From: a candidate division WOR-3 bacterium
GTDB lineage: Bacteria; Hydrothermota; UBA3072
Assembly (NCBI GenBank): GCA_039804165.1
Contig: JBDRZZ010000005.1
Span: 27,290-91,289, forward strand
DNA length: 64,000 bases
Reading direction: 5' to 3'
Both the position numbers and the translations under genes were made by a program. A model generated the notes under the pieces. That model did not search any database. It saw only the letters and a program-made list of their open reading frames with translations, and was not told the DNA's origin. How positions within the stretch are numbered: position 1 is the stretch's first letter; the number at the start of each line of letters is the position of its first letter. Of this stretch, positions 40,255-60,300 are shown piece after piece.

Positions 40255-40256
40255 TT

Positions 40257-45176: not shown

Positions 45177-46221
45177 TTATAACCTCTCTCAATCTTTCAA
45201 TAAAAATTTTATTTTCTTTGGTTTTTCCAATTGTTACCCTCAATGTGTTTTTCAATCTTGGGTTGTCGAAGTATCTTAAAAGGACTCCCTTTTTATAAAG
45301 TTCTTCAAATAGTTCTTTTCCAGAAAGAAATTTTGTTTTAAAAAGGATAAAATTAGTGTAAGAAGGAATGGGTTCAATTCCTGGAAGATCTTGTAATTTG
45401 GAGAAAATATTCTCTCTTTCTTTTATGATTTTTTTTACAACCTCTTCTTTATATTCCTTATTTTTTAATAAAACCTCTCCCGCCACCTGGCTGAATATTC
45501 CCAAGGAGAAGGGAAGCTTTGCCTTTTGAATTTGGCTTGCTAAAGTTTCATTACTTAAAAGATAGCCGATTCTAAGGCCTGCCAGTCCAAAAGCTTTAGA
45601 TAGAGTTCTAATTATAACGAGATTTTCATATTTATTTAATAGGGGAACTGCGGTTTCCTTTGAGAATTCGAAATAAGCTTCGTCTAAAACTAAAACTCCA
45701 TTTATATTTTTTGCAATTTCTTCTATTTCTGGAAGAAAAATTGTTGTTCCTGTAGGATTGTTTGGGACTGCTAAAACGACCATTTTTGAATTTTTTCCTT
45801 TTTTGATTATTGATCTTATATCAAAACTGAAATCTTCTAAAAGGGGAACCTCTATTATTGTTAGATTCATAATTTTAGCAAGATAAGTGTATATTGGAAA
45901 ACTTGGAGAAACGAAAGTAACTTTATCTTTTTTTTCACAGAATGTTTGGAAGACTGCTTGAATTATTTCATTTGAGGCATTCCCTGCCACTATTCCATTT
46001 TTGGGAAAATTATTATATTTAGCAATTGCTTCAACTAAAGGATTGGCAGTTCGTGGCGGATATCTATTCCAGTTTATTTTAAGCATTCTTTTTAATATTT
46101 CTTTTTTTAAATTTAAAGGAACATCATAAGGAGACTCATTTTGATTTAGCTTTACTTCATATTTCTCTTGTGGAACTTTGTATTCTTTCAATTCCTGAAT
46201 TTCTTTTCTTACATATTTCAT
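45157..46221 (-). CDS. hisC: Histidinol-phosphate aminotransferase
   Basis: Class-II aminotransferase (NESPY...YPP...LSKAFGLAGLRIGY PLP lysine). First gene of the supraoperon, with RBS AGGTGGT. Confidence 0.85.
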   Translation of the reverse strand: MKYVRKEIQELKEYKVPQEKYEVKLNQNESPYDVPLNLKKEILKRMLKINWNRYPPRTANPLVEAIAKYNNFPKNGIVAGNASNEIIQAVFQTFCEKKDKVTFVSPSFPIYTYLAKIMNLTIIEVPLLEDFSFDIRSIIKKGKNSKMVVLAVPNNPTGTTIFLPEIEEIAKNINGVLVLDEAYFEFSKETAVPLLNKYENLVIIRTLSKAFGLAGLRIGYLLSNETLASQIQKAKLPFSLGIFSQVAGEVLLKNKEYKEEVVKKIIKERENIFSKLQDLPGIEPIPSYTNFILFKTKFLSGKELFEELYKKGVLLRYFDNPRLKNTLRVTIGKTKENKIFIERLREVINEKNIC

Positions 46222-48375: not shown

Positions 48376-49470
48376 TTAACTTTTGGGGATAAAGAGGGTG
48401 AATTTAGAACCTTTATCCTTTTCGCTTTCTACTTCGATCCAACCACCCATTCCTCTTATTACGCTGTTGACAAAGAAAAGTCCTATTCCTGAGCCTCCTT
48501 CGTCTCCATTTTCTTCTGTTTTTGTTGTAAAGAAAAGTTCAAAGATTTTTTCTTTTACCGCAGGTTCCATACCGCATCCATTATCAGAAACTGATATAGC
48601 GACATATTCTTTTTCCTTTTCGTCTTTCTCAAGGCGGAAGATATTTCTGACTTCAAAGTGAATTTTACCCTCGTTTGATTCTCCAATTGCATCTTTTGCG
48701 TTCATTAGTAGGTTTATAAGCACTTGATGAAGTTGGTCTGGGTCTCCTATTACTAAGGGTTCTGGATCAAAATAAGAAGCTGTAATTGTTAATTTTTTGG
48801 ATAATGCTTGTTGACCTAAATGAACTACTTCTTTTACCACATCAATTACATTAAAGAGTTTCTTCTCTCCTCTAATTTTTCTTGTGTTAGAGAGAAGAGC
48901 TTTTAAGAGATTTTTTATTCTCCTTACCCCATCCGCACCTAATTGGACGTCCTCAAGGACTTCAGGGTCCTTTATGTATTCTAAGGCAGCATTAATTCCA
49001 TATGAAACTTCCATTAATAAATTGTTTGCTTCATGGGCTATTCCCCCAATAAGTTGTCCAATTGTTGCAAGCCTTCTTGAAGAAAGCATCCTTTTTTGGA
49101 GTATTTCTAATTTTGAGACATCTTTTGCCATTGATAAACCCCTAATTTGTGAACTCAAATTAAGGAAAATAGAACTCCATTCGTAAATTCTTTTACTTCC
49201 AAATTCAGGCTTTATTTCTATATTTTGGATGATTATAAAAGGCTCTTTTTCATCAAAGGCTTCTCCTTCAATATTTCCCTCTTTTTGAGCTTTAATTGAT
49301 TCCTGTAACTCACGCATAAGTGTTGGTTCTAAGATTTCCTTTATTGGTTTTCCAAATTCTTGTTCTGCCCTTCCATTCCAGAAAAGAATTTTGTAATCTT
49401 TGTCCCAAGCGATAAGAGGAACAGGAATAAAATCAAGTAAAAATCCCAATTCTTTTTCTATCTCTATCAT
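48376..49470 (-). CDS. Cytoplasmic PAS-domain sensor histidine kinase (orphan, no adjacent response regulator)
   Basis: PAS-like N-terminus, H-box LIGGIAHEANNLL, then N/G1/G2 boxes (DNGCGM, GSGIGL). No TM segments. Confidence 0.8.
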   Translation of the reverse strand: MIEIEKELGFLLDFIPVPLIAWDKDYKILFWNGRAEQEFGKPIKEILEPTLMRELQESIKAQKEGNIEGEAFDEKEPFIIIQNIEIKPEFGSKRIYEWSSIFLNLSSQIRGLSMAKDVSKLEILQKRMLSSRRLATIGQLIGGIAHEANNLLMEVSYGINAALEYIKDPEVLEDVQLGADGVRRIKNLLKALLSNTRKIRGEKKLFNVIDVVKEVVHLGQQALSKKLTITASYFDPEPLVIGDPDQLHQVLINLLMNAKDAIGESNEGKIHFEVRNIFRLEKDEKEKEYVAISVSDNGCGMEPAVKEKIFELFFTTKTEENGDEGGSGIGLFFVNSVIRGMGGWIEVESEKDKGSKFTLFIPKS

Positions 49471-49487: not shown

Positions 49488-49540
49488 AAAGGGAAGAGAG
49501 TAGGACTTTCTACTCTCTAAACCCTTTATTTTTGTTTTAT
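49488..49540 (-). terminator. Rho-independent terminator after the Hfq-like gene
   Basis: aaaggg-aag-agagagtag-gacttt-ctactctct-aaa-cccttt, followed by T-runs on both strands. Confidence 0.55.
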
Positions 49541-49542
49541 TT

Positions 49543-49740
49543 TTATTCCTCCCAGTCTTTCACTTCAAGATGAGAAATCGCACGATGGGAGACGAAAACA
49601 GATCGGTTGTTCGCCATTGGGGTTTCCACTTTTAGAAATAAACCTCTATCATTTCTTCCAGTTACAGTCCCTTCAAACTTTGATCCATCTATCGTTATTA
49701 TCTTTACATGTCTTCTTAACCCCCTTTTCCAGTCCACCAT
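49543..49740 (-). CDS. Divergent Hfq-like / Sm-fold small protein (65 aa)
   Basis: VKIITIDGSKFEGTVTGRNDRGLFLKVE aligns with the Sm1 motif, and VFVSHRAISHLEV matches the Hfq Sm2 motif YKHAIS. RBS AAAGGAGGAG. Confidence 0.5.
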   Translation of the reverse strand: MVDWKRGLRRHVKIITIDGSKFEGTVTGRNDRGLFLKVETPMANNRSVFVSHRAISHLEVKDWEE

Positions 49741-49764: not shown

Positions 49765-49902
49765 TTAACAATAACCTACAGTTCCATCACCGCTTAAGAC
49801 AATCATTCCAATTTCTGGATTACTTAAATTTTCTAATTTTGTTCCCTTTTTCAAAGACCCAACAAAACTTAATAAGATTAATAATACATTTAAAGTAACC
49901 AT
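49765..49902 (-). CDS. Unannotated 45-aa peptide with a hydrophobic N-terminus (MVTLNVLLILLSFVGSLKKGTKLENLSNPEIGMIVLSGDGTVGYC)
   Basis: ATG preceded by AAAGGAGGT at 7-nt spacing and TAA stop. Lies between a sigma54 promoter and the Hfq-like gene. Too short for the ORF track. Confidence 0.45.
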   Translation of the reverse strand: MVTLNVLLILLSFVGSLKKGTKLENLSNPEIGMIVLSGDGTVGYC

Positions 49903-49938: not shown

Positions 49939-49955
49939 CGCAATACTCGTTCCAA
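49939..49955 (-). promoter_or_regulatory. Sigma54 (-24/-12) promoter
   Basis: Minus strand TTGGAACGAGTATTGCG matches TGGCAC-N5-TTGC with one mismatch and exact GG/GC spacing. An IHF-like site AATCAAATACTTA lies at 49974-49986. Confidence 0.5.
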
Positions 49956-50007: not shown

Positions 50008-50025
50008 TGTGACATTTATGTCATA
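50008..50025. promoter_or_regulatory. Palindromic upstream activator site 1 (TTGTGACA-N4-TGTCATAAAA)
   Basis: tgtgacatttatgtcata is near-dyad-symmetric (GTGACA/TGTCAT), about 55 bp upstream of the -24 element. Confidence 0.45.
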
Positions 50026-50072: not shown

Positions 50073-50090
50073 TGTGACAAAAATGTCATA
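50073..50090. promoter_or_regulatory. Palindromic upstream activator site 2 (second copy)
   Basis: tgtgacaaaaatgtcata, with the same flanks (ttGTGACA...TGTCATAAAA), 65 bp from copy 1 and immediately after the activator-gene stop. Confidence 0.45.
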
Positions 50091-50114: not shown

Positions 50115-53100
50115 TTACTTTTTTATTTCAAATTCTTTAATTAGTCTATATAGATGTCTTTTTGAAATTTTTAAGTTTTCTGCGGTTTTTTTTATATCCC
50201 AATTTGTTTCTTCAAGAGCTAAAAGGATTGTTTCTCTTTCCCATTTTTTCTTTATCTCTGGCCATGAGACCTTTTTCTCTTCTATTTTTTCTCTTTTTAC
50301 TTCTTCTGGTAGGTCTTCTTCTTTTATATATTCTCCTTTACATTTAATTATAGAAATTTCTACAATATTTCTTAATTCTCTAATATTTCCGGGGAAGGGA
50401 TAATTTTTCAAAATCTCAATTGCTTCTTCTGTAAAGCCCTTTATCTTCTTTTCTCTTTTTTCTCTAAATATTTTTAAATAATGTTCAAGTAAAATGGGGA
50501 TATCAATTTTTCTTTCCCTTAGGGGAGGGATTGATATGTTTATTTGGTTTAAACGATAAAGGAGGTCTTCTCTAAATTCTCTTAAGAAAGCCATTTGTTC
50601 GATATCCTTATTTGTTGCAGAAATAATTCTAACATCGACCTTTCTTATTTCTGTTTCTCCCACCCTTCTAATTTCTCCAAGGTCTGTAACTCGCAAGAGT
50701 CCTGCTTGGATTGAAGGAGGAGCATCTCCAATCTCATCCAAGAAGAGAGTTCCTCCGTTTGCCTCTTCGCACATTCCCTTTTTGTCTTTTATTGCTCCGG
50801 TGAATGAACCCTTTTTGTGACCAAATAATTCACTCTGAAGCAAGGTTTCTGTTAGGGAACTACAATCCACAGTTACAAAGGGCCTATTTTTTCTTTTGCT
50901 TAAAGAGTGGATCGTTCTTGCAATAAGTTCTTTTCCAGTTCCTGTTTCTCCTGTGATTAAAACATTTACATCTGTTGGAGCAATTTCTTCTATTGTTTTA
51001 TATATCTTTTGCATTGGTTCTGAAATCCCAATTATTGAATGGAAAGAATGTGGAGGGGAAGTCATTTTTCTTAACCGAGCTAACTCCTCTTTTATTTGGT
51101 AAAGGAGATCTCCTTTTGCAAAAAGAATGCCGAGAATCCTTCCAATTGACTGTAAGAACTCTTTATCAGAAGGAAGGAAAATGTCTTTTTTTATTGTTGA
51201 ATCAAGATAAAGAACTCCATAAATTTTGTTTTTATAAGTTATTGGAACACATAAAATTGAACGGATTTTATTTCTCTGAATGGAATCCATTTTGTAAAAT
51301 CTTTCATCTATTGTTGCATCTCCTGTGATTATGACTTCTCCTTTTATAACTTTTTCAGTTATTGTTTTTGAGATCTTCCTTGCGTCCTGGAGAGTTATTT
51401 CATCTATGTTGTAAGAAGAAACAATAATATTTTTATCATTCTCTTTTAAAATTAGAGCTCCTCTTTCTGCATTTAGAAATTCTGTAATTGTGGATAAAGC
51501 TTCATCAAACCTTTTTTCCGAGTCAATTGAAGAAAGGAGTTTACTTATTTCGTCATAGGTGTAGATATATCCTTTTCTTAATGAAGTTTTTCTAGCGCAT
51601 TCTGCAAGAAGTTTGGTTGTTTCATTTAAGAAAAGTTCTGATTTTAGCTCCTTAAAAACTTCCTCTGCTTTTTTTAATTCTTCAATTGCTTCTTCTATTC
51701 TATTTTTTTGAAGTAAAATGGTTCCTTTTTTCAATTGTGTTTGAGCAATGTGGAAAGGTAGGCTAATCTTAGAGAAAAGCTTAATTGCTTTATCGCAAAA
51801 CCTTGGTTCCTCGTTTATAAAACCCCAAGAAGAAAGAAGCTTCCCTTTTTCAAAATTTGATTTTAAGGAAGAGATTTTCTCAAAATAAGGTTTTAGAGTT
51901 TCTACTGCCTCTTCTTTTTTTCCTTCTAAGAATAAAACTTCCGAAAGTTGTCGAGCAATATCTCTTTCATCTCTTGGGTCTCCTTTTGTTCTTTTTAAAA
52001 CCTCTCTAAAAATCTTCTCAGCTTCTTTTAGTTCTCCTTTCCATCTAAGAATTGTTCCTTCTAAGTCTCTTAAGTCATATTTTTCTTCTTTTAATTCATT
52101 TCTTAATCTTTCAACCTCAAGCCAATTTCCTTTATATAGCTCTCCTTCAAGTAATTTTGCCTTTAAGAAAGGTTGAAGCTTTCCATGCCTATTTTTAAAA
52201 TCTTCTATTTTCTCTTTTAATTTTTCCCAAAAACCAGTATTAAGATAAAGAATAGATAAACTTGTTAGACAAGGAGATTCAAGTTCTCCAATTTTTAATT
52301 TTTTGAAAATTGAAAGGGCCTCTTCAAGTTGTTTTAAAGCTTCCTTATAGTTATCAAGGCGTAAAAGGGAAATTCCTTTATATGTTATAAATATTGCTTC
52401 ATTTACAAAATCTCGTTCTTTTTTAGATATCTCAAGACATTTCTCAAAATATTCAATTGCCTCTTCATGTTCTTCTTTCTGTTGATTCGCAATCCCTCCA
52501 AGGGTTAAGAAATGTCTTTTTAAGGTAGGGGAGAGGTCTTTTTTTAGTTCCTCTTCAACAATTTTTAATGTTTTCTCAAAATCTCCTTTTGCGCAGAGAA
52601 ACCTTCCTTCAACAAATTTTAATTTTGGTGGTAATTCTTTTGCTTCATTTTTGTATTCCAAAATGAGTTTTTCTGCCTCTTCTATTCTTTCCTGTCTTAC
52701 AAGAAAATAACCTAACCAATAAATCCCTTCTTCTTTTAATTTTCCCTTTGCAAATTTAATTCCTTCTCTAAAATATTTTTCAGCTTCTTCTTTATTCTCA
52801 AGCCTATCAAAAATAGCTCCAATTTTTAATAAATAAAAAGGATTCTCTTTTTTCTTTTCTAAAAGTTCTTTGTAAATGGATAGGGCTTCATTTATCTTTC
52901 CTCCTAATTCAAAAACTCTTCCAAGAACCATCCGAAGAATTGGCTCATCTTTTAAAAGAAGAGCTTCTTGTAAAAATTTTCCAGCTTCCTGATAATCTTT
53001 CTCTTTTATTTTCTTTTTTGCTATTTTTATTAAAGATTCTCTATATTCTTTTTCTTTACCTAAGTCTTTTTCAAGAAGATGTAAAGACTCAGGAGTGGAG

Positions 53101-54740
53101 ATTCTTTTTTTTATTCTTTTATAAAGTTCTTCCTTTTCTTTTTGGGTCAGTTTTTTATAGAAGAAATCTCTTGTCCAATTAGAAAGAAATTGAATTCCTT
53201 TCTTATCTTTTTTTAATATGTTCTTTGAGGAAAGAGAATTAACCAAAGTGTAAGGATTTTTTATTTCAAAAATTGAAATTGAATTTAAAGGGAAGCTTTC
53301 CTGGAAAATGGATAGTTTTTTTAATAGTTCCTTTTCTTCTAAGGGAAGCTTTTCGAGTTTTGCTTTTAAATTTTCTTCAATACCTTTTGGTAAGGAAATA
53401 GATAAGGGAAGTTTCTCATTAAAGAAAATTTCATCTCCTTTTCTTTCAATTGCTCCTTCTAAAATGAGATTCTCGATTAGCTGATTTAAAATAAGAGGAT
53501 TCCCTTCGCTTTGTTTAAGGAGAAAAGAAGTTAGCTCTTTTTTATTTATAATCTTATTAGGAAAATTTTTGTTAATAATGAATTCAATTTCTTCTTTGTT
53601 TAAGGGAGAAAGGGTAAAAGAAGTTGTAATATCTTCTAATTCTTCTAATTCGTTTTCTTTATCAGGGCTGCTTATCACAATTAAAATAGGGCTTAACCTT
53701 ATTGTTGTTTTATTTTCTTTTAAGATAACTTTTATTTCCTGAAGAGAAGCATTATCAATAAATATAACAATGGGTTCTGTTATTCTTTCTTCTTTAAAGA
53801 AAAGATGGATTTCTCCGGAACTCATTTCTTTTATGTTTATTCCCTTTATAAGAGCTCTTATTTTGAATTCCCTTAAAAGAGCTGTTTTGCCAATTCCTTT
53901 TTCTCCTTTTATTAATAAAATGTGAGGCTCAGGCAGGTTGGAAAGATAAAACTCGAAATCCTTTATTTCTTTTTCTCTTCCAGAAAAAATTGTAATAAAT
54001 GAGAGCTTTCTTTCTTCTATTGTGGTTCCAAGAAGAATTTCTCTTTTTACATCTTCTATATTCTTAATCCTATTTTCAATTTGGGGTTCAATCATCCTCT
54101 GAATTAGAAAGTTTAATTCCTCTGGAATTAAAGGATTATATCTTTCTGGTGGGGGAAGACGGTTTTTTAGTTTTTCCTCTATTATTTTTGACAGGTTTCC
54201 TTTAAATGCTTTTTCTCCTGTTAAAATCTCGTAAAGAATTATGCCAATAGAGTAAATGTCAGAAGAAAAAGAAGGGACTTCTGTAAAGGCTTCTGGAGAT
54301 GTATATGTAGGAGTAATTATTTCCGGATTATATCCTGGATCGATCAACTTGACGTTATTTCTTTCATCCACAAATATGTGATTTGGTTTAAGATCGCCAC
54401 AGACAATTCCACGAGAATGTAGAACTGAAAGAGCATCAAGAATGGAGTTAAGAATATTTTTGATTTTGTCGAAATCTTCTTTTTGAGACGGTTTTACTTT
54501 GAAGACTTTGTCGATTGTTGGAGAAGAGATTTTTTCCATTGAAAAGCCACATTTTTCACCATCTTCAAACCACTCGTAAACAGTTACAAAATGAGGGTCT
54601 CTAATTTCAGAGAGAAGTTTAAATTGTTCGTAAAGTAAATCCTTCTTTAGAAGTTCTCCAACTTTGTATACAATTTCTCCTTTTTCGTAAATCTTTGCAA
54701 AATTTCCTTTTTTAATAAGATTAAATTTAGTTAAATCCAT
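50115..54740 (-). CDS. Giant multidomain sigma54-dependent transcriptional activator: Ser/Thr-kinase-like domain, AAA_16/STAND-type P-loop NTPase, TPR array, GAF, sigma54-interaction AAA+ domain and Fis-type HTH
   Basis: Kinase-like motifs (CGDLKPNH, DPG, SPE, DIYSIG). Walker A GEKGIGKT. About 500 aa of TPR-like repeats. GAF (ILCVPITYKNKIYGVLYLD). EBP core (VLITGETGTGKE, GSFTGA, LFLDEIGD). C-terminal HTH (ISKRHLYRLIKEF). No receiver domain. Confidence 0.85.
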   Translation of the reverse strand: MDLTKFNLIKKGNFAKIYEKGEIVYKVGELLKKDLLYEQFKLLSEIRDPHFVTVYEWFEDGEKCGFSMEKISSPTIDKVFKVKPSQKEDFDKIKNILNSILDALSVLHSRGIVCGDLKPNHIFVDERNNVKLIDPGYNPEIITPTYTSPEAFTEVPSFSSDIYSIGIILYEILTGEKAFKGNLSKIIEEKLKNRLPPPERYNPLIPEELNFLIQRMIEPQIENRIKNIEDVKREILLGTTIEERKLSFITIFSGREKEIKDFEFYLSNLPEPHILLIKGEKGIGKTALLREFKIRALIKGINIKEMSSGEIHLFFKEERITEPIVIFIDNASLQEIKVILKENKTTIRLSPILIVISSPDKENELEELEDITTSFTLSPLNKEEIEFIINKNFPNKIINKKELTSFLLKQSEGNPLILNQLIENLILEGAIERKGDEIFFNEKLPLSISLPKGIEENLKAKLEKLPLEEKELLKKLSIFQESFPLNSISIFEIKNPYTLVNSLSSKNILKKDKKGIQFLSNWTRDFFYKKLTQKEKEELYKRIKKRISTPESLHLLEKDLGKEKEYRESLIKIAKKKIKEKDYQEAGKFLQEALLLKDEPILRMVLGRVFELGGKINEALSIYKELLEKKKENPFYLLKIGAIFDRLENKEEAEKYFREGIKFAKGKLKEEGIYWLGYFLVRQERIEEAEKLILEYKNEAKELPPKLKFVEGRFLCAKGDFEKTLKIVEEELKKDLSPTLKRHFLTLGGIANQQKEEHEEAIEYFEKCLEISKKERDFVNEAIFITYKGISLLRLDNYKEALKQLEEALSIFKKLKIGELESPCLTSLSILYLNTGFWEKLKEKIEDFKNRHGKLQPFLKAKLLEGELYKGNWLEVERLRNELKEEKYDLRDLEGTILRWKGELKEAEKIFREVLKRTKGDPRDERDIARQLSEVLFLEGKKEEAVETLKPYFEKISSLKSNFEKGKLLSSWGFINEEPRFCDKAIKLFSKISLPFHIAQTQLKKGTILLQKNRIEEAIEELKKAEEVFKELKSELFLNETTKLLAECARKTSLRKGYIYTYDEISKLLSSIDSEKRFDEALSTITEFLNAERGALILKENDKNIIVSSYNIDEITLQDARKISKTITEKVIKGEVIITGDATIDERFYKMDSIQRNKIRSILCVPITYKNKIYGVLYLDSTIKKDIFLPSDKEFLQSIGRILGILFAKGDLLYQIKEELARLRKMTSPPHSFHSIIGISEPMQKIYKTIEEIAPTDVNVLITGETGTGKELIARTIHSLSKRKNRPFVTVDCSSLTETLLQSELFGHKKGSFTGAIKDKKGMCEEANGGTLFLDEIGDAPPSIQAGLLRVTDLGEIRRVGETEIRKVDVRIISATNKDIEQMAFLREFREDLLYRLNQINISIPPLRERKIDIPILLEHYLKIFREKREKKIKGFTEEAIEILKNYPFPGNIRELRNIVEISIIKCKGEYIKEEDLPEEVKREKIEEKKVSWPEIKKKWERETILLALEETNWDIKKTAENLKISKRHLYRLIKEFEIKK

Positions 54741-54790
54741 AAATTATTTTTATAATTTAATCAAAATATGTGAAATACACAAGAGGGGAG

Positions 54791-54846: not shown

Positions 54847-55527
54847 ATGGGTAAAATAATTGTGGTTGTAGATGATGAGGTTGATATTGTAGAGCTTATT
54901 TCTGTTAACCTGGGAAAAGTAGGCTTTAAAGTTGAAGGTTTTTATAATGCAGGTGACTTTTTAAATTTTCTTAAAAAGAGAACCCCTGACCTTATTATTC
55001 TTGATTTAATGTTGCCTGACGCGGATGGTTTTGAGGTTTGTAAATATTTAAAATCTGAGGAGAAATATGGAAATATTCCAATTATAATGGTAACAGCAAA
55101 AGGTGAAGAGGTGGATAAGATTTTAGGTCTTGAGATTGGAGCTGATGATTATATCACAAAGCCTTTTTCTACAAGGGAATTAATTGCAAGGGTTAAGGCG
55201 GTTTTAAGAAGGTTTGAGAAAGAGGATAAATTTGAGGTTATTAAGATAGGGGGAAACGTGGAAATTCTTCCTAATAAGTATAAGGTTATTGTTTCTGGCA
55301 AAGAAATTGAGCTTACTTCAACCGAGTTTAAAATTTTGGTTTTGCTTGCTAAGAGGAAAGGGTGGGTTTTTTCCCGAGACCAGATTCTAAATTATCTATA
55401 TGAAGGGGAGAGACTCGTATTTGACAGAACTATTGATGTTCACATAGCACATCTTAGGGAAAAACTTGGCAAATATGGAGGTTTTATTAAAAGTGTGAGG
55501 GGTATAGGATATAAAATAGAAGAATGA
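54847..55527 (+). CDS. phoB: OmpR/PhoB-family response regulator
   Basis: REC domain (VVVDDE...DLIILDLMLPDADG...ITKPF) plus a winged-helix output domain. Followed by phoR and pst genes. Confidence 0.85.
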   Translation: MGKIIVVVDDEVDIVELISVNLGKVGFKVEGFYNAGDFLNFLKKRTPDLIILDLMLPDADGFEVCKYLKSEEKYGNIPIIMVTAKGEEVDKILGLEIGADDYITKPFSTRELIARVKAVLRRFEKEDKFEVIKIGGNVEILPNKYKVIVSGKEIELTSTEFKILVLLAKRKGWVFSRDQILNYLYEGERLVFDRTIDVHIAHLREKLGKYGGFIKSVRGIGYKIEE

Positions 55528-57260
55528 AGAATATATTTTTTAGAATCTTTTTTGGGCAGTTAATTTTGATTAGTTGTGTTTCTTTATTTTTTGTTTTGTT
55601 TTCTTTTGGTTTAGTAAAAAGGTATTATGTTAATACTCTTACCGAAAACCTTGAAAAAATTGCTCTTTCTCTTAGAAGGACCTTAACTCCTTATCTTGTT
55701 TGTGAAAAATTCTCTTCTTTAGATTCTCTTGCAAAGTATATTGGAAAAGAGATAAAGGTGAGAATTACTGTAGTTGACTTAAAAGGGGTTGTTCTTGCTG
55801 ATTCCGAAGAGAATCCTGAGAAAATGGAAAACCACGGAACAAGGCCAGAAATATTACAAGCTTTTTATGGAAAAACCGGGATTTCTCTTCGTTTTAGCAA
55901 AACTTTTGGTAAAGATATGTTATATGTTGCTATTCCTATTAAAGATGAAAAAGGTGAGGTGTTTGGAGTTATAAGGTTGAGTTTATTTTTCACTCAGATA
56001 GATGAGCTAATAGGTGCTTTTGTTAGAAATTTACTTATTGTTGTTTTTTCGCTTTTATTTTTTTCTATTTTTGTATCTTTTTTTTATTCTAAATCTCTTG
56101 CAAAACCCATTGGTGAGCTTGTAAGTATAGCCGATGAAGTAGCTAAAGGTAATTTTGAACTTGAGGTTTTTGTAGAAGGTAAGGGAGAATTAAAGAGGCT
56201 TGCCGAAAGCTTTAATAGTATGCTCACTCGTATTAGAGAATTGGTTTCTAAATTATCAGAACAAAGAGATTCTCTTGATATTGTTATTTCTTCTATTGGA
56301 GAAGCTCTTCTTGTGATTAACTCGGATGAAAAGATAGTGATTGTTAATGATAGTTTTAAAGAGATTTTTAATGTAAGTGAAGTAAAAAATAAATATTATT
56401 GGGAGGTTTTTAGAGAACCTCAGTTTGGAGAAATTATAGAAGAAGTAAAAAAGAAAAGAGATAGCGTAGTAAAGGAAATAAAAATTGGAGAGAGATATTT
56501 TATATGCACTGCTAACTTTTTAAAAAAATATAATGAAGTTGTAATTACTCTTCACGAAATAACCGAGAAAAAGAAAACCGAATTAATGAAAAAAGATTTT
56601 ATTTCAAATGTCTCTCATGAACTCCGGACACCTTTAACTGCTATTAAGGGTTTTGTTGAAACTCTTTTAGAAACTCAAAAGGGTGATGGTAAGAGATATC
56701 TTGAAATAATAAGAAAGCAAACAGATCGTCTCATTAATATTGTTAAAGATTTACTTAGACTTTCTGAACTTGAAGAAATTGAAGAAGGGAAGATTAAAAT
56801 TGATTTTTCACAGGTGGATTTAAAGAAATTGATAAAGGATGTTTTAAGTATTTACGAAAAAGAAATGAAAGATAAGGGCTTGCGCTTGGTTGTTTCTATA
56901 GATAGAAGCGTTTCTAAGATTAAAGGTGATCCATTTAAACTCGAGCAGCTTTTTATGAATTTAATTGAGAATGCTATTAGGTATACAGATAAAGGAGAAA
57001 TAAAAATAAATGCAAGAAGAGAAAAGAGAGCGATTGTTATTGAAGTTTCTGATACAGGAATTGGAATATCCGAGGAACATTTACCAAGAATTTTTGAAAG
57101 ATTCTACGTTGTGGATAAGTCTCGTTCCCGTGAATATGGAGGGACAGGTCTTGGGCTATCCATTGTGAAGCATATTGTCCAATTACATCAAGGAGAGATA
57201 AGGGTTGAGAGTAAAAAAAATAAAGGAACAAAATTTACCATTATTTTGCCGGAGAATTAG
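55524..57260 (+). CDS. phoR: Phosphate-regulon sensor histidine kinase (PhoR-like: TM, HAMP, PAS, HisKA, HATPase)
   Basis: H-box SHELRTPLTAIKGF and ATPase boxes (DTGIGI, GGTGLGLSIVK). Overlaps phoB with ATGA. Confidence 0.8.
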   Translation: MKNIFFRIFFGQLILISCVSLFFVLFSFGLVKRYYVNTLTENLEKIALSLRRTLTPYLVCEKFSSLDSLAKYIGKEIKVRITVVDLKGVVLADSEENPEKMENHGTRPEILQAFYGKTGISLRFSKTFGKDMLYVAIPIKDEKGEVFGVIRLSLFFTQIDELIGAFVRNLLIVVFSLLFFSIFVSFFYSKSLAKPIGELVSIADEVAKGNFELEVFVEGKGELKRLAESFNSMLTRIRELVSKLSEQRDSLDIVISSIGEALLVINSDEKIVIVNDSFKEIFNVSEVKNKYYWEVFREPQFGEIIEEVKKKRDSVVKEIKIGERYFICTANFLKKYNEVVITLHEITEKKKTELMKKDFISNVSHELRTPLTAIKGFVETLLETQKGDGKRYLEIIRKQTDRLINIVKDLLRLSELEEIEEGKIKIDFSQVDLKKLIKDVLSIYEKEMKDKGLRLVVSIDRSVSKIKGDPFKLEQLFMNLIENAIRYTDKGEIKINARREKRAIVIEVSDTGIGISEEHLPRIFERFYVVDKSRSREYGGTGLGLSIVKHIVQLHQGEIRVESKKNKGTKFTIILPEN

Positions 57261-57310
57261 GTTTGTAAGTTTTGTTTTTATAGGGTCGATTAATAAGTCA
57301 ATTTTTAATC

Positions 57311-57349
57311 TTAACAAATACTTAATACTGAATTAATAAGAAATTAACC
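57311..57349 (+). promoter_or_regulatory. Pho-box-like array upstream of the porin gene: four 6-bp direct repeats at 11-bp periodicity
   Basis: TTAACA-aatac-TTAATA-ctgaa-TTAATA-agaaa-TTAACC. This matches the Bacillus-type PhoP box TT(A/T/C)ACA with 5-nt spacers. Confidence 0.5.
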
Positions 57350-57441
57350 ACTCTATTTATGGTAGATTGTGAAGACTAAGTTGTATGTTTGACTTCATTA
57401 AATGGTGTATTATAAACCTTTAACTCAAAAAGGAGGTTTTT

Positions 57442-58446
57442 ATGAAGAAGTTTAGTTTAGTAGTCGGTTGGAGTTGCCTGATTTTATTGATTGTTGCTCC
57501 TATAGGTCTAAAGGGAGGAGAAACGAAAATCTCTATGACGTTGTGGAATAGATATACTGCTGAAAGAAGCGAAGGGAAATTTACCAAAAGTGCATTTACC
57601 TTAGAGAGAGGTTATTTTGGTGTTGAACCCACTTTTACAGATAGGATAAAAGGTAGATTCACAATTGATGTTTTCTCTTCTGATAAATTTGCAGATGGAG
57701 CTGGACTTAAGTTGAAATACGCTTATCTTAATTTTACGCAAGTTTTGCCAATACCAGAGAGCGATATCCAGGTTGGGTTACTAAAGCATTATTTTGGAAC
57801 TGTCTATGACTGGGAGTATATTTCTATTCGGAAAGCCCTGGAGGACGAGAGAAAAGTAGCTTCATCCGCAGATTATGGACTTGCTCTTTTTGGTTATATT
57901 CCGCATGGTTTTGGAGAATATGCAATTTCAATTTTAAATGGAGAAGGATATAATAAGACAGGGAGTGCCCTTGACAAAGAACCTGAAATTGCAGGTAACT
58001 TGAGAGTTATTCCTTTACCAGGATTAACTATTGGAGGCTCTATTCTTTATGAAAATAAGGAAAGTGATCGATTTGCCTATGTAGGTGTAGGACGTATTGC
58101 AAGAGGTCCATTTGAAATCTGGGGAGAGTATCTTATTCAAGATAAAAGCGATATTAAGAGTAATGGTTGGATGATTATGCCAATCTTAAAGCTTCAGAAT
58201 TTAGCAAAATTGGATGTGGACATTATTGGAAGATTTGATAAATGGGACGGCAATACCGAATTAGAAAATGATGGAGATATGACTATTACCTGTGGGATAA
58301 ACTGGAATCTCGTTAGAGACGAAAAGAATAAATCTTGTGTTTTCCTTCAAATTCAGGGAGAGAAGACTATTTTCGAAAATGAAGCTATAAGTGATATTAA
58401 TCAGCTTTTGATTCAACTCCAATGGAAATTCAGCAATACCATATAA
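57442..58446 (+). CDS. Outer-membrane beta-barrel porin, possibly phosphate-selective
   Basis: Signal peptide, alternating amphipathic beta-strands and a C-terminal aromatic residue region (LQWKFSNTI). Pho-box upstream and pstS downstream. Confidence 0.45.
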   Translation: MKKFSLVVGWSCLILLIVAPIGLKGGETKISMTLWNRYTAERSEGKFTKSAFTLERGYFGVEPTFTDRIKGRFTIDVFSSDKFADGAGLKLKYAYLNFTQVLPIPESDIQVGLLKHYFGTVYDWEYISIRKALEDERKVASSADYGLALFGYIPHGFGEYAISILNGEGYNKTGSALDKEPEIAGNLRVIPLPGLTIGGSILYENKESDRFAYVGVGRIARGPFEIWGEYLIQDKSDIKSNGWMIMPILKLQNLAKLDVDIIGRFDKWDGNTELENDGDMTITCGINWNLVRDEKNKSCVFLQIQGEKTIFENEAISDINQLLIQLQWKFSNTI

Positions 58447-58453
58447 AAGACTC

Positions 58454-58492
58454 TTAACAAAAACTTAACATTTAATTAATGGTTTTTTAATG
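58454..58492 (+). promoter_or_regulatory. Second Pho-box-like array upstream of pstS
   Basis: TTAACA-aaaac-TTAACA-tttaa-TTAATG-gtttt-TTAATG with exact 11-bp periodicity, about 30 nt upstream of the pstS RBS. Confidence 0.5.
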
Positions 58493-58522
58493 ATTGGATA
58501 GAATAATAAAAGGAGGTTTAAA

Positions 58523-59341
58523 ATGAAAAAGAGTGGAATTTTTAATCTTGTAAAAGTGTGGATGGTTCTTTTAGGTTTCTCCGGTTTTGCTGCTTCAAAG
58601 AGGATAAATATCACGGGTTCCACCACTGTTTTACCAATTGCCCAAAGAGAGGCAGAAGCTTTTATGGATCTTTATCCAGATATTTCAGTCTCTGTCCGAG
58701 GCGGTGGTTCTGGAGTAGGAATTACAGCACTTATTGATGGAAGAACAGATATAGCAAATTCTTCAAGGGCTATTCAAACGAAAGAACTTAAAATTGCTCG
58801 AGAGAAAGGTGTAAATGTTTATGCGAATGTGATAGCTCGGGATGGAATTGCAATTGTTGTTAACCCTAAAAACCCTATAGATTCTATTACATTGGAAGAT
58901 TTAAAGAAGATTTATACTGGAGAGATTAGTAATTGGGAAGCTCTTGGAGGACCATCTAAACCTATAGTTGTTATTTCTCGGGATTTCTCTTCAGGAACTT
59001 TTGAAGTTTTTAAAGACCTTGTTCTTAAAGGAGGAAAGGTAAAAGATGATGCTTTGATGCTTGCTTCAAATAAAGCCGTTGCTACAACTGTAGCAGAAAC
59101 TCCAGATGCGATTGGTTATATTGGTCTTGGGTATATTTCTGAGGAAGTAAAAGTTTTGAAGATTGATGGAGTTTTTCCTAATAAAGAAACAGTTCAAAGT
59201 GGGAAATATAAACTATCGCGTGCTCTTTTTATGTATACGAATGGTGAACCTAAAGGCATCATAAAAACTTTTATAAATTTTGTATTATCCAGAGAGGGGC
59301 AGAGAATTGTTGAAGAAGAAGGATTTGTGCCAGTTAAATGA
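58523..59341 (+). CDS. pstS: Phosphate ABC transporter substrate-binding protein
   Basis: Signal peptide, then TVLPIAQREAEAFMDLYPDISVSVRGGGSGVGITALIDGRTDIANSSRAI. Confidence 0.9.
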   Translation: MKKSGIFNLVKVWMVLLGFSGFAASKRINITGSTTVLPIAQREAEAFMDLYPDISVSVRGGGSGVGITALIDGRTDIANSSRAIQTKELKIAREKGVNVYANVIARDGIAIVVNPKNPIDSITLEDLKKIYTGEISNWEALGGPSKPIVVISRDFSSGTFEVFKDLVLKGGKVKDDALMLASNKAVATTVAETPDAIGYIGLGYISEEVKVLKIDGVFPNKETVQSGKYKLSRALFMYTNGEPKGIIKTFINFVLSREGQRIVEEEGFVPVK

Positions 59342-59394
59342 AGTCAAATACCTCCTTATTTATGGGTTTGTTGTTGACACAGCTGAAAAAAACC

Positions 59395-59422
59395 AAGAGG
59401 TGGGGGGTAGGCCCCACCTCTT
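59395..59422 (+). other. GC-rich 11-bp perfect stem-loop between pstS and pstC. Likely an mRNA-stabilising or partial-terminator hairpin
   Basis: aagaggtgggg-ggtagg-ccccacctctt. It stands out in an AT-rich genome. pstC downstream lacks an obvious SD. Confidence 0.5.
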
Positions 59423-59433
59423 AAATAATAAAA

Positions 59434-60300
59434 ATGTTGAAAGAAAAGATTTTTAAATATTTGACTGAGGCAGCAGCTTTATGTTCTATTATTTTTCTTT
59501 TTGGAATAATATTCAGTGTATTTAAGGAAGGATATGTTATATTTTCTGAAGTGGGTTTTCTTAAATTTATTTTTGGTAAATCCTGGCACCCCGTTTATTC
59601 TCCTCCAGAATTTGGAATCTTGGGACTTATTGTTGGTTCGGTGATTGTCACTTTTGGAGCCTTGATTATTTCCGTTCCACTTGGTTTGGGCTCCGCCATT
59701 TATATTTCAGAGCTTTCTTATCCAAAAGCTAAGGAAGTTTTAAAACCAATTATAGAGCTTCTTGCAGGTATTCCTTCAGTAATTTACGGTTTATTTGGTA
59801 TGGCTTTTTTGGGACCTTTCCTTGCAAGGATTTTTGGTTTGGAAGTGGGTTTAAATGCTTTTACCGCTTCAATAATTCTTGGGATAATGGTGATTCCCAT
59901 AATTTCAAGTATTTCGGAGGATGCGATAAATGCGGTTCCAAAGGATTTAAGGGAAGCATCTTTTGCTCTTGGAGCAAATAAATGGGAGACAATAATTCAT
60001 ATAATACTTCCCGCAGCAAAGTCAGGAATCATTGCTTCAATAGTTCTTGGGTTTGGAAGAGCAATTGGAGAAACAATGGTTGTTTTGATGGTAGCAGGGG
60101 GATCAGCAAAGATACCCCATTCAATATTTCAACCAGTTCGTCCTATGACTTCTACGATCGCGGCGGAAATGGGAGAAGCAACCGTTGGTAGTTTACACTT
60201 CCATGCTTTATTTGGAATAGCGATTGTCCTTTTTTTAATAACGTTTTTTTCTAACCTTTTAACTGAATGGGTGATTAGAAAGGCAAAGGGTAAAAAATGA
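59434..60300 (+). CDS. pstC: Phosphate ABC transporter permease PstC
   Basis: Six-TM permease with an EAA-like loop (ISEDAINAVPKDLREASFALGANKWETI). Confidence 0.9.
   Translation: MLKEKIFKYLTEAAALCSIIFLFGIIFSVFKEGYVIFSEVGFLKFIFGKSWHPVYSPPEFGILGLIVGSVIVTFGALIISVPLGLGSAIYISELSYPKAKEVLKPIIELLAGIPSVIYGLFGMAFLGPFLARIFGLEVGLNAFTASIILGIMVIPIISSISEDAINAVPKDLREASFALGANKWETIIHIILPAAKSGIIASIVLGFGRAIGETMVVLMVAGGSAKIPHSIFQPVRPMTSTIAAEMGEATVGSLHFHALFGIAIVLFLITFFSNLLTEWVIRKAKGKK

What the first reader, a model, noticed from the sequence alone, without database searches (positions are those of the whole stretch)
50115..54740. 1541-aa chimeric sigma54 activator: kinase-like + STAND/AAA_16 NTPase + TPR + GAF + EBP + HTH, with no receiver domain
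Translation shows one uninterrupted frame encoding six modules in series. (1) A roughly 250-aa protein-kinase-like fold. (2) A P-loop NTPase with Walker A GEKGIGKT, of the AAA_16/STAND type seen in PknK/MalT/AfsR-like regulators. (3) About 500 aa of TPR-like helical repeats. (4) A GAF domain. (5) A canonical sigma54-interaction AAA+ module (GETGTGKE, GSFTGA, DEIGD). (6) A Fis-type HTH. Standard enhancer-binding proteins use a REC, GAF, PAS or V4R input. Fusion of a PknK-like kinase/STAND/TPR signalling ATPase to an enhancer-binding protein is, to my knowledge, not a described architecture. It would couple two ATPase engines and a possible kinase activity to sigma54 activation. Its binding sites and target promoter lie immediately downstream (see next findings), which makes this a self-contained regulatory system.
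Basis: partly seen in the sequence, partly recalled or inferred. Interest (0 to 1): 0.8.

Follow-up and report, generated by a model that had tools for sequence, protein, structure and literature searches.

The report
Giant kinase-STAND-TPR-GAF sigma-54 activator
This is a real 1541-residue transcription activator from an uncultured WOR-3 bacterium that joins a degenerate kinase-like domain, a STAND ATPase switch, TPR repeats and a GAF domain to a standard sigma-54 activator, and it most likely switches on a tiny two-gene operon next door; the domain combination is unstudied but turns out to be common in sequence databases, so it is less novel than it first looked.

Summary
One uninterrupted ORF on the minus strand (50115-54740, 1541 aa) encodes a Hanks-kinase fold, a P-loop STAND NTPase, about 520 aa of TPR hairpins, GAF, a sigma-54 AAA+ module and a Fis-type HTH, with no receiver domain. 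It is not a frame-fusion artefact: 24 full-length orthologue clusters of the same length come from independent WOR-3-type assemblies.

The adjacent target is also real. Two copies of an 18-bp palindrome (TGTGACA-N4-TGTCACA) and a TGGAAC-N5-TTGC -24/-12 element sit between the gene's stop codon and a small two-gene operon. This layout recurs in all 8 orthologous loci that keep the operon downstream. A paralogous clade uses a different palindrome.

Two points of the interpretation need correcting.
- **Novelty.** The architecture is well populated. About 100 of the 150 best 50%-identity representatives found with the input module alone carry the same kinase-to-sigma-54 fusion. The 120 best-scoring 90%-identity clusters found with a relative, Acidobacteriota where named, also have it, under generic names.
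- **Kinase.** The domain here is degenerate: Gly-loop lost, alphaC Glu to Gln, catalytic-loop Asn to His, DFG to DPG, short activation segment. A pseudokinase role is more likely than catalysis.

I found no paper describing this class. Verdict: real, coherent and testable, an unstudied variant of known kinds. Interest is moderate.

The parts
50115..54740 (-). Whole gene: 1541-aa kinase-like / STAND / TPR / GAF / sigma-54 AAA+ / HTH activator. It is identical to an NCBI protein named 'MAG: sigma 54-interacting transcriptional regulator [candidate division WOR-3 bacterium]'.
54021..54740 (-). Hanks-type kinase-like domain (aa 1-240). The beta3 Lys26, Asp116-x-Lys118 and Asp134 are kept. The Gly-loop is degenerate, alphaC Glu is Gln39, catalytic-loop Asn is His121, DFG is DPG, and the activation segment is very short.
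   Evidence: Pfam Pkinase at 84 bits; AF2 model plus Foldseek best hits to PknB/PknE/Stk1; motif tally
53151..53987 (-). STAND nucleotide-binding oligomerisation domain (aa ~252-530). It has Walker A GEKGIGKT (279-286), Walker B-like VIFID329N, an invariant GNP (413-415), and winged-helix hairpins.
   Evidence: AAA_16 and nSTAND3 above cutoff; invariant columns; AF2 secondary structure; best fold match 6mfv PH0952
51576..53144 (-). Arm plus TPR sensor region (aa ~533-1055), about 26 helices forming roughly 13 helical hairpins.
   Evidence: TPR_12/TPR_2/TPR_8 and related families; matches to consensus TPR proteins; AF2 model all-helical with pLDDT>90
51126..51518 (-). GAF domain (aa 1075-1205), directly N-terminal to the AAA+ module as in NifA/NorR/FhlA.
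   Evidence: Pfam GAF at 52.9 bits; NCBIfam NifA/NorR/FhlA models align from about aa 1063
50274..51035 (-). Sigma-54 interaction AAA+ domain plus lid (aa 1236-1489): Walker A GETGTGKE, GAFTGA-loop GSFTGA, Walker B LFLDEIGD, and conserved Arg residues.
   Evidence: Sigma54_activat at 224.9 bits and AAA_lid_14 at 86 bits; invariant columns in 14 sequences
50130..50240 (-). Fis-type HTH (HTH_8, aa 1501-1537).
50073..50090 (.). Distal enhancer site: 18-bp palindrome TGTGACAAAAATGTCATA, centred about -153 from the inferred transcription start.
   Evidence: The window holds only 2 matches against 0.04 expected. Every clade-A locus whose sequence covers this region has 2-3 copies, with 65-67 bp spacing.
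50008..50025 (.). Proximal enhancer site: TGTGACATTTATGTCATA, centred about -88.
49939..49954 (-). Sigma-54-type -24/-12 promoter TGGAACGAGTATTGCG, about 37 nt before the ATG of ORF1.
   Evidence: It occurs exactly once, at the same relative position, in all 8 clade-A loci.
49765..49902 (-). ORF1: 45-aa peptide with a hydrophobic N-terminus and a C-terminal Cys, preceded by AAGGAGG. It is the first gene of the inferred target operon.
49543..49740 (-). ORF2: conserved 65-aa hypothetical protein, the second gene of the target operon. A homologue is also the first gene behind the promoter in the paralogous clade B.
   Evidence: weak sub-threshold DUF6982 hit
49495..49518 (-). Terminator-like hairpin plus T-run after ORF2.
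48376..49470 (-). PAS + HATPase_c protein (364 aa). It is conserved directly downstream of ORF2 in the 7 clade-A orthologous loci that keep ORF2 downstream, and may be a read-through member of the unit.

Best explanation
The gene encodes a functional bacterial enhancer-binding protein. Its signal-input region is a complete TPR-type STAND switch (NOD + arm + TPR sensor), capped at the N-terminus by a degenerate Hanks-kinase-like domain and followed by a GAF domain that abuts the AAA+ ring module.

**Shown.**
- The six domains are present and conserved.
- The sigma-54-contact (GAFTGA-type) loop and the ATPase motifs of the EBP module are intact.
- Two 18-bp palindromes and a -24/-12 element lie between the gene and a small operon, ORF1 (45 aa) and ORF2 (65 aa), followed by a PAS-HATPase gene.
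- This cis layout is conserved in orthologous loci while the surrounding intergenic sequence is not.
- A paralogous clade has its own palindrome, placed in front of an ORF2 homologue.

**Inferred.**
- The HTH binds the palindromes at about -88 and -153.
- In the resting state the STAND NOD is closed (ADP form), held by NOD-TPR contacts as in PH0952 and MalT. The GAF domain adds proximal control of the AAA+ domain, as in NorR and NifA.
- An unknown ligand or partner bound by the TPR and/or GAF domain opens the NOD. ATP-dependent STAND multimerisation then raises the local concentration of the AAA+ modules, so they form the active hexamer.
- The hexamer remodels sigma-54 holoenzyme at TGGAAC-N5-TTGC and turns on ORF1-ORF2.
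- The kinase-like domain most likely acts as a non-catalytic or weakly catalytic nucleotide-binding or dimerisation module, not as a signalling kinase.
For: - **Domains.** Pfam and NCBIfam hits. AF2 models with pLDDT 86.7 and 89. Foldseek best hits are PknB-type kinases for aa 1-240 and the TPR-STAND PH0952, 6mfv, for aa 245-1065 at E 5.3e-15 against 1.2e-9 for the next hit.
- **Purifying selection on the whole architecture.** 24 full-length orthologue clusters. Invariant columns include Walker A of both ATPases, the STAND GxP motif, the T-G of the GSFTGA loop (its other four positions are nearly invariant), the D-E of Walker B, and the Arg residues of the EBP module.
- **Enhancer sites.** The palindrome occurs 2 times in 64 kb against 0.04 expected, both copies in the 212-bp gap after the gene. 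Eight related loci carry 2-3 copies at the equivalent place, spaced 65-67 bp apart.
- **Promoter.** A single TGG(A)A(C/T)-N5-TTG(C/T) lies 40-50 nt before the ORF1 ATG in 8 of 8 loci.
- **Gene order.** EBP, ORF1, ORF2, PAS-HATPase is kept in 7 fetched orthologous loci as well as the window.
- **Paralogous clade B.** L002/L014, L011, L015 and L016 have GGTGCGA-N7-TCGCACC plus a divergent -24/-12 element. In L002/L014 and L015 this sits in front of a detected ORF2 homologue. Neither palindrome occurs next to the other clade's genes.
- **STAND switch model.** It is taken from PH0952/MalT work (PMC6468293, PMC4381067).
- **Degenerate kinase.**
Against: - There is no experimental data of any kind; the source is a metagenome-assembled genome.
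- rpoN is not in the window, and I could not check the rest of the genome.
- In 4 of 8 orthologous loci the -12 element reads TTGT rather than the canonical TTGC.
- The single-window promoter match is not significant on its own: 23 matches at <=2 mismatches against 14.4 expected. Its weight comes only from conservation.
- The STAND Walker B lacks the second acidic residue (D329-N330), and its Asp is not invariant across the clade, so the hydrolysis step of the switch is uncertain.
- The kinase domain keeps Lys26, Asp116 and Asp134, and its substitutions (Gln39, His121, Pro135) are themselves invariant. An unusual but active phosphotransferase is therefore not excluded.
- The signal is unknown.
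- The function of ORF1 and ORF2 is unknown.
Confidence: 0.65

Rival explanations
1. The N-terminal domain is an active Ser/Thr kinase. Activation is gated by auto- or trans-phosphorylation, for example of the GAF-AAA+ linker or of a partner, so the protein truly couples kinase signalling to sigma-54.
For: The beta3 Lys, the catalytic-loop Asp-x-Lys, the metal-binding Asp of DxG and the APE Glu are invariant in 26 of 26 WOR-3 sequences. The fold is that of a canonical PknB-like kinase. A distant full-length relative, P0026, has fully canonical motifs.
Against: In 26 of 26 sequences the Gly-rich loop is K-x-G-x-x-A, alphaC Glu is Gln, catalytic-loop Asn is His and DFG is DPG. The activation segment is six residues with no Ser/Thr. 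Among 208 other kinase-EBP fusions collected here, only 100 keep the catalytic Asp, so the family tolerates dead kinases.
Confidence: 0.25
2. This is a peptide or small-protein feedback circuit. The TPR sensor binds the product of its own target operon: either the ORF1 peptide, as in RRNPP regulators such as PlcR-PapR, or the ORF1/ORF2 proteins, as PspA-C do for PspF. That would give auto-induction or feedback inhibition.
For: A 42-52 aa peptide gene with a conserved hydrophobic N-terminus, a variable middle and a C-terminal Cys in 7 of 8 loci lies directly behind a TPR-containing regulator and under its promoter. ORF2 travels with both paralogue clades.
Against: The evidence is purely positional. 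No binding was tested. ORF1 has no positively charged n-region typical of signal peptides, and its Lys-Lys follows the hydrophobic stretch. I saw no ORF1 counterpart in the two clade-B loci I read. No processing or export genes were identified.
Confidence: 0.12
3. The long ORF is an assembly or frameshift artefact that joins a PknK-like gene to a NifA-like gene.
For: None beyond its unusual length. The source is a MAG.
Against: There are 24 orthologue clusters of 1518-1561 aa with 98-100% coverage from JGI, ENA, NCBI and Logan assemblies. Sixteen loci occur in species-representative genomes. About 100 deeper relatives have the same domain order.
Confidence: 0.01
4. It is a NifA orthologue, that is a nitrogen-fixation regulator. 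JGI's automatic name for several orthologues is 'Nif-specific regulatory protein'.
For: The best NCBIfam model is TIGR01817 nifA, covering aa 1063-1477.
Against: The score is 356.7 against a cutoff of 528.85. The match covers only the GAF-AAA+ part. The ORFs I scanned around the gene and in the window include no nif genes. The conserved target is a pair of tiny ORFs.
Confidence: 0.02
5. It is a STAND-type anti-phage defence protein (Avs-like or kinase-type defence) rather than a housekeeping regulator.
For: STAND NTPases and Ser/Thr kinases occur in defence systems. PADLOC gives domain-level hits to PD-T4-6 kinases and to RtcR-type EBPs.
Against: The hits cover single domains only, and no defence-system model matches the architecture. 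ORF1, ORF2 and the PAS-HATPase gene have no PADLOC hit. The protein has a complete EBP output with cognate enhancer and promoter. The genes scanned around it are housekeeping: pst, amino-acid biosynthesis and two-component systems.
Confidence: 0.03

Closest known systems
Uncharacterised database family of kinase-STAND-GAF-sigma-54 activators (mostly Acidobacteriota, 1.5-2.2 kaa; NCBI name 'sigma 54-interacting transcriptional regulator')
   Same: Same domain order: Pkinase, AAA_16/nSTAND P-loop, long helical region, GAF, Sigma54_activat, HTH_8. One full-length relative, P0026 (28% identity over 99% of the length), also has clear TPR and TPR_MalT hits.
   Different: Identity is only 25-32%. The WOR-3 clade is shorter (about 1540 aa), has strong classical TPR signatures, and has its own set of invariant kinase-site substitutions. 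No member has been studied experimentally as far as I could find.
MalT (E. coli) and PH0952 (P. horikoshii): TPR-type STAND transcription activators
   Same: NOD (NBD-HD-WHD with P-loop and GxP) followed by an arm and a TPR sensor. PH0952 is the best structural match. The published mechanism is inducer-dependent release of NOD-sensor autoinhibition, ADP to ATP exchange and multimerisation (PMC6468293, PMC4381067).
   Different: In MalT and PH0952 the effector is a simple DNA-binding domain acting on sigma-70-type transcription. Here the effector is a second ATPase, an AAA+ sigma-54 remodeller, plus a GAF domain, and there is an extra kinase-like domain at the other end.
PknK (M. tuberculosis): STAND Ser/Thr kinase
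   Same: An N-terminal Hanks kinase is followed by a MalT-like STAND/TPR region (named as a STAND kinase in PMC4381067; listed as kinase + MalT-like domain in PMC1262709).
   Different: PknK is reported as a functional serine-threonine kinase (PMC4381067) and, from my own knowledge, has no DNA-binding or EBP output. Here the kinase motifs are degenerate and the C-terminus is a full GAF-EBP.
GAF-containing enhancer-binding proteins NifA, NorR, FhlA
   Same: GAF-AAA+-HTH_8 order and strong sequence similarity over aa ~1063-1540. In those proteins the GAF domain controls the AAA+ domain (established knowledge, not tested here).
   Different: None of their curated models reaches its cutoff. They lack the about 1060-aa kinase/STAND/TPR extension.
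'Dual protein kinases' of cyanobacteria and others (Ser/Thr kinase + AAA_16 + GAF + HisKA/HATPase)
   Same: The same input cassette (Pkinase, AAA_16, GAF) is fused to a different output. These turned up as more distant hits (P0033-P0051; about 10 of the 150 representatives). They are described in PMC1262709.
   Different: The output is a histidine kinase rather than a sigma-54 activator.

Membership tests
Bacterial enhancer-binding proteins (sigma-54 activators) | AAA+ sigma-54 interaction domain with Walker A and Walker B | tested here: met
   Sigma54_activat at 224.9 bits (cutoff 20.2). In GETGTGKE and LFLDEIGD, the G, E, GTGK and FLDE residues are invariant across 14 sequences.
Bacterial enhancer-binding proteins (sigma-54 activators) | GAFTGA loop that contacts sigma-54 | tested here: met
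   GSFTGA at aa 1311-1316. T1314 and G1315 are invariant and the other positions are >=90% conserved.
Bacterial enhancer-binding proteins (sigma-54 activators) | C-terminal Fis-type HTH and cognate upstream enhancer sites about 80-150 bp from a -24/-12 promoter | tested here: met
   HTH_8 at 28.3 bits (cutoff 22). Two palindromes lie at about -88 and -153, against 0.04 expected by chance. The layout is conserved across loci. Binding itself was not tested.
Bacterial enhancer-binding proteins (sigma-54 activators) | sigma-54 (rpoN) encoded in the same genome | not tested
   There is no RpoN-box in the six-frame translation of the 64-kb window.
STAND NTPases, TPR-sensor (MalT/PH0952/PknK) type | P-loop NBD of the AAA_16/STAND type | tested here: met
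   AAA_16 at 42.5 bits (cutoff 32.6) and nSTAND3 at 30.8 bits (cutoff 27.2). The G, G, G, K, T positions of GxxGxGKT are invariant.
STAND NTPases, TPR-sensor (MalT/PH0952/PknK) type | NOD = NBD + helical domain (GxP) + winged-helix domain, followed by arm and repeat sensor | tested here: met
   G413 and P415 of GNP 413-415 are invariant. The AF2 model shows beta-hairpin winged helices and then about 26 helices. The best PDB fold match is 6mfv PH0952, E 5.3e-15 over 703 columns.
STAND NTPases, TPR-sensor (MalT/PH0952/PknK) type | Walker B hhhhD(D/E) | tested here: inconclusive
   VIFID329-N330: the first Asp is present in the window protein but is not invariant in the clade, and the second acidic residue is absent.
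STAND NTPases, TPR-sensor (MalT/PH0952/PknK) type | Inducer-dependent ADP/ATP switch and multimerisation | not testable with these tools
   This needs biochemistry. It is inferred from PMC6468293.
Hanks-type Ser/Thr protein kinases (catalytically active) | Bilobal kinase fold | tested here: met
   Pkinase at 84 bits. Foldseek hits to PknB, PknE and Stk1 have target-normalised TM-scores of 0.65-0.76.
Hanks-type Ser/Thr protein kinases (catalytically active) | beta3 Lys, catalytic Asp (HRD) and metal-binding Asp (DFG) | tested here: met
   D116 and D134 are kept in 26 of 26 WOR-3-clade sequences, and K26 in 25 of 26, the other being an alignment gap.
Hanks-type Ser/Thr protein kinases (catalytically active) | GxGxxG loop, alphaC Glu, catalytic-loop Asn, DFG Phe, phosphorylatable activation loop | tested here: not met
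   In the 26 clade sequences the loop is K-x-G-x-x-A in most, Glu is Gln in 26/26, Asn is His in 26/26 and Phe is Pro in 26/26. The activation segment YNPEII has no Ser/Thr.
NifA (TIGR01817 equivalog) | Score above the curated cutoff | tested here: not met
   356.7 bits against a cutoff of 528.85.
Response-regulator-type EBPs (NtrC class) | N-terminal receiver domain | tested here: not met
   No Response_reg among the 25 best Pfam families shown, nor in the Pfam list stored for the identical database protein. NtrC-type models align only from about aa 1205-1231 onward.

The most novel reading that the evidence does not exclude
Two nucleotide-driven oligomerisation machines are wired in series in one polypeptide. 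A STAND apoptosome-like switch, with a pseudokinase as an extra nucleotide or partner sensor, would nucleate assembly of an AAA+ sigma-54-remodelling ring. The circuit would close on itself because the TPR sensor reads the small Cys-terminated peptide (ORF1) or the 65-aa protein (ORF2) that it induces. That would be an RRNPP-like or Psp-like feedback loop outside Firmicutes and Proteobacteria, duplicated into two insulated paralogous circuits in some WOR-3 genomes.
Probability: 0.1. Interest if true: 0.7.

Novelty: new variant of a known kind. Interest (0 to 1): 0.4.

Why it matters
Enhancer-binding proteins must hexamerise to work, and how diverse inputs control that step is a central question in sigma-54 biology. 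STAND proteins are the textbook case of ligand-triggered ATP-dependent multimerisation, seen in MalT, Apaf-1 and NLRs. A natural fusion of the two offers a way to ask whether STAND assembly can license AAA+ ring formation. There are at least about 100 deep clusters of such fusions, most of the named ones in Acidobacteriota, plus this compact WOR-3 clade.

The WOR-3 version is a convenient entry point. It is the shortest. Its enhancer (an 18-bp palindrome, two copies), its promoter and its two-gene target sit within 600 bp of the gene. A paralogue with a different palindrome provides a built-in specificity control.

The work also corrects automatic names such as 'Nif-specific regulatory protein', and it shows that the kinase domain in this class is often a pseudokinase. 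On the other hand, nothing here overturns a principle. EBPs are known to be modular, and the function of the target genes is unknown.

Tried and rejected
1. **Plus-strand reading.** It is full of stops; the gene is on the minus strand.
2. **Literature.** Nine full-text searches and several papers were read for any description of a kinase- or STAND-fused EBP. None was found. The 2005 survey of prokaryotic kinase architectures lists kinase+MalT-like and kinase+GAF+HisK but no sigma-54 fusion. The myxobacterial kinome paper (PMC2572974) is not held, so I could not check my recollection that myxobacterial kinomes include such fusions.
3. **rpoN.** There is no RpoN-box in the window, and no paper links WOR-3 and rpoN. 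This stays unresolved.
4. **NifA and other named EBP equivalogs.** All score below their cutoffs.
5. **Defence-system reading.** PADLOC gives only single-domain hits.
6. **Organism names for relatives.** The cluster look-up returned no organism names. The genome-contig scan gave 'candidate division WOR-3' and 'Candidatus Stahlbacteria', plus unnamed MAGs.
7. **ORF2 function.** There are only 5 lineage-restricted hypothetical homologues and a sub-threshold DUF6982 hit.
8. **Full-length query.** This turned out to be the cleaner test, because the query then lacks the sigma-54 domain.
9. **First palindrome pattern.** My first regular expression assumed an N5 spacer and found nothing. The true spacer is N4.


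Full report
**1. Observation**

The window has one long ORF at 50115..54740. The window is AT-rich, with 33% G+C.

Pfam finds, all above gathering score:
- Pkinase, aa 36-226, 84 bits.
- AAA_16 and nSTAND3, from aa 252.
- Several TPR families between about aa 578 and 961. TPR_12 scores 90 bits in six stretches.
- GAF, aa 1075-1205.
- Sigma54_activat, aa 1236-1402, 225 bits.
- AAA_lid_14, aa 1408-1489.
- HTH_8, aa 1501-1537.

No receiver domain appears among the Pfam families listed.

An AF2 model of aa 1-560 (pLDDT 86.7, pTM 0.77) matches bacterial Hanks kinases best: PknB, PknE and Stk1, with target-normalised TM-scores of 0.65-0.76. A model of aa 245-1065 (pLDDT 89) matches the TPR-sensor STAND protein PH0952 (6mfv) best. 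That hit has E 5.3e-15 over 703 columns, against 1.2e-9 for the next hit.

The protein is identical to an NCBI entry named 'MAG: sigma 54-interacting transcriptional regulator [candidate division WOR-3 bacterium]'.

**2. Not an artefact**

Twenty-four clusters at 90% identity are 42-69% identical to the window protein over 98-100% of its length. They are 1518-1561 aa long and come from JGI, ENA, NCBI and Logan assemblies.

A scan of species-representative genomes with N-terminal patterns found 16 loci. Those that carry an organism name are 'candidate division WOR-3' or 'Candidatus Stahlbacteria'. Several MAGs carry two copies.

**3. State of each module**

*EBP module.* The key residues of Walker A (GETGTGKE) and Walker B (LFLDEIGD), the T-G of the GSFTGA loop, and the Arg residues of the FRxDLxYRL and GNxREL motifs are invariant in a 14-sequence alignment; the other loop positions are at least 90% conserved. 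That alignment includes a 28%-identical relative. This module looks fully functional.

*STAND module.* The P-loop residues (GxxGxGKT) and the G and P of the GxP (GNP) motif are invariant. The Walker B reads VIFID-N, without a second acidic residue, and its Asp is not invariant.

*Kinase-like module.* I aligned it to M. tuberculosis PknB, using the sequence from memory only to index columns. The 26 WOR-3-clade sequences keep the HRD Asp, the following Lys, the DxG Asp and the APE Pro-Glu in all 26, and the beta3 Lys in 25, the other being an alignment gap. All 26 have:
- alphaC Glu replaced by Gln;
- catalytic-loop Asn replaced by His;
- DFG replaced by DPG.

The Gly-rich loop is K-x-G-x-x-A in most of them. 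The PDB alignments confirm CGDLKPNH against YRDLKPEN and DPG against DFG. The segment between DPG and the P+1 Thr is only YNPEII, with no phospho-acceptor.

I therefore read the domain as a pseudokinase or at best an atypical kinase. The invariance of the substituted residues argues that it is still under selection for some nucleotide- or partner-binding role.

**4. What it controls**

Downstream of the stop codon on the same strand lie:
- two copies of the 18-bp palindrome TGTGACA-N4-TGTCA(T/C)A, at 50073-50090 and 50008-50025;
- TGGAACGAGTATTGCG at 49954-49939;
- an AAGGAGG ribosome-binding site;
- ORF1, 45 aa, 49902-49765;
- ORF2, 65 aa, 49740-49543;
- a terminator-like hairpin at 49518-49495;
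- a PAS-HATPase_c gene at 49470-48376.

The palindrome occurs only at these two places in 64 kb, against 0.04 expected. The promoter-like match is not significant on its own.

In the 8 clade-A loci compared (the window plus seven fetched loci, 50-68% protein identity where measured), the same four-gene order is kept. Each locus has exactly one TGG(A)A(C/T)-N5-TTG(C/T) at 40-50 nt before the ORF1 ATG. Each also has 2-3 palindromes spaced 65-67 bp apart, about 50 bp upstream of that promoter. The rest of the intergenic DNA differs in sequence and in length, from about 200 to about 1300 bp.

With the start inferred about 11 nt after the -12 GC, the sites centre near -88 and -153. These are typical enhancer distances.

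A second paralogue clade of about 1552 aa (L002/L014, L011, L015, L016) lacks this arrangement. It has a different palindrome, GGTGCGA-N7-TCGCACC, and a divergent TGGAA(T/C)-N5-TTG(T/C) element. In L002/L014 and L015 these lie in front of an ORF2 homologue of 34-47% identity. Neither palindrome appears next to the other clade's genes. The HTH recognition helices also differ: ISRRHLYRLIK against ISRRSLQLKIKK.

This regulator-site co-variation is the strongest in-silico evidence that these proteins are working enhancer-binding proteins, and that the ORF2-type gene is their conserved target.

**5. Mechanism proposed**

*Shown:* the anatomy above.

*Inferred from established family knowledge:* TPR-type STAND proteins rest as ADP-bound closed monomers, held by NOD-sensor contacts. 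Inducer binding releases these contacts, ATP replaces ADP, and the protein multimerises (PMC6468293, PMC4381067). EBPs are active only as AAA+ hexamers. GAF domains next to the AAA+ module gate it in NorR, NifA and FhlA (general knowledge).

The simplest model is two-tier control. A signal read by the TPR and/or GAF domain opens the STAND NOD. STAND multimerisation on the paired enhancer sites concentrates the AAA+ modules. These form the ring that remodels sigma-54 holoenzyme at the ORF1 promoter.

The signal and the role of ORF1 and ORF2 are unknown.

**6. Comparison with what is known, and novelty**

*In databases it is common.* A HMMER search of 1.84 billion 50%-identity representatives with aa 1-1200 only, which has no sigma-54 domain, gave 144 hits at E<=1e-30. 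Of the best 150:
- about 100 contain a sigma-54 AAA+ module;
- 97 contain the kinase plus the sigma-54 module;
- 80 of those have a G..G.GK[ST] P-loop between kinase and GAF;
- about 10 carry a HisKA/HATPase output instead.

A word-indexed search with one relative (P0027) listed 120 clusters of 1773-2185 aa, all with Pkinase+AAA_16+GAF+Sigma54_activat and nearly all with HTH_8. NCBI names several of them 'sigma 54-interacting transcriptional regulator', in Vicinamibacteria, Blastocatellia, Acidobacteriia and other Acidobacteriota.

*In the literature I could search, nothing describes the class*.

My conclusion is that the gene is a WOR-3 member of a large, generically annotated and experimentally untouched family. 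That family combines two well-understood kinds, MalT/PknK-type STAND proteins and GAF-type EBPs. This fits 'new variant of a known kind'.

**7. Rivals**

- An active kinase is possible but disfavoured (section 3).
- A peptide or small-protein feedback loop is attractive but untested.
- A fusion artefact, a NifA orthologue and a defence STAND are rejected.

**8. Limits**

- rpoN was not found in the window and could not be searched in the rest of the genome.
- Half of the orthologous promoters have TTGT at -12.
- All functional statements are inference from sequence.

Noticed in passing
window 49765-49902 (-); L001 11301-11444; L003 10844-11002; L005, L007, L008, L010, L013: ORF1 is a conserved small-peptide family of 42-52 aa. 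It has the N-terminus M(V/I)xLNILL(I/V)LLxFINSxKK, a variable middle, a (G/E)x(V/I)V(L/I)SGG core, and Cys as the very last residue in 7 of 8 loci. No Pfam or PADLOC hit. It could be a membrane-anchored or exported peptide.
   Followed up: partly
window 49543-49740 (-): ORF2 is a 65-aa, beta-rich-looking hypothetical protein (NCBI locus tag ABIN61_03545). Only 5 lineage-restricted homologue clusters were found, plus a sub-threshold DUF6982 hit. A homologue is the first gene behind the sigma-54 promoter of the paralogous EBP clade as well.
   Followed up: partly
L002/L014 5795-5884, L011 5046-5066, L015 1325-1345, L016 5911-5931: A paralogous EBP clade of about 1552 aa uses a different palindrome, GGTGCGA-N7-TCGCACC, and a divergent sigma-54-type promoter. 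In L002 the operon continues into large proteins, one with no Pfam hit and one with only faint or weak BNR/CHU_C hits plus FlgD_ig. Some MAGs carry two copies of the gene; in co34_552 and co34_518 one copy has the clade-B palindrome.
   Followed up: partly
window 48376-49470 (-): A soluble PAS + HATPase_c protein of 364 aa has no HisKA hit in the window copy and only a weak one in L003. It follows ORF2 in the clade-A loci that keep ORF2 downstream, yet the EBP has no receiver domain, so its partner is unknown.
   Followed up: no
window 54741-54780 (-): The EBP gene has no Shine-Dalgarno sequence. The only sigma-70-like -10 on its strand ends 6 nt before the ATG, which suggests a leaderless or non-SD start.
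   Followed up: no
P0056-P0322 (relatives, not in the window): In 208 other kinase-to-sigma-54 fusions the catalytic HRD Asp is kept in only 100 (Asn 51, Gly 19, Ala 16, Ser 15). Pseudokinase domains are therefore widespread in this protein class.
   Followed up: partly
window 54847-61151 (+): An OmpR-type response regulator, a Cache/HAMP/PAS histidine kinase, a 334-aa ORF with no Pfam hit, and PstS-like/PstC/PstA-like genes lie divergent from the EBP gene. This looks like a Pho-type phosphate module. It is not conserved next to the orthologues examined (L001-L003), so it is probably unrelated.
   Followed up: no
window 37809-46221 (-): There is a long co-directional block of histidine, tryptophan and aromatic amino-acid biosynthesis genes. 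It includes a 401-aa fusion of a His_biosynth (HisA/HisF-type) domain with PRA-CH (HisI) at 42040-43245.
   Followed up: no
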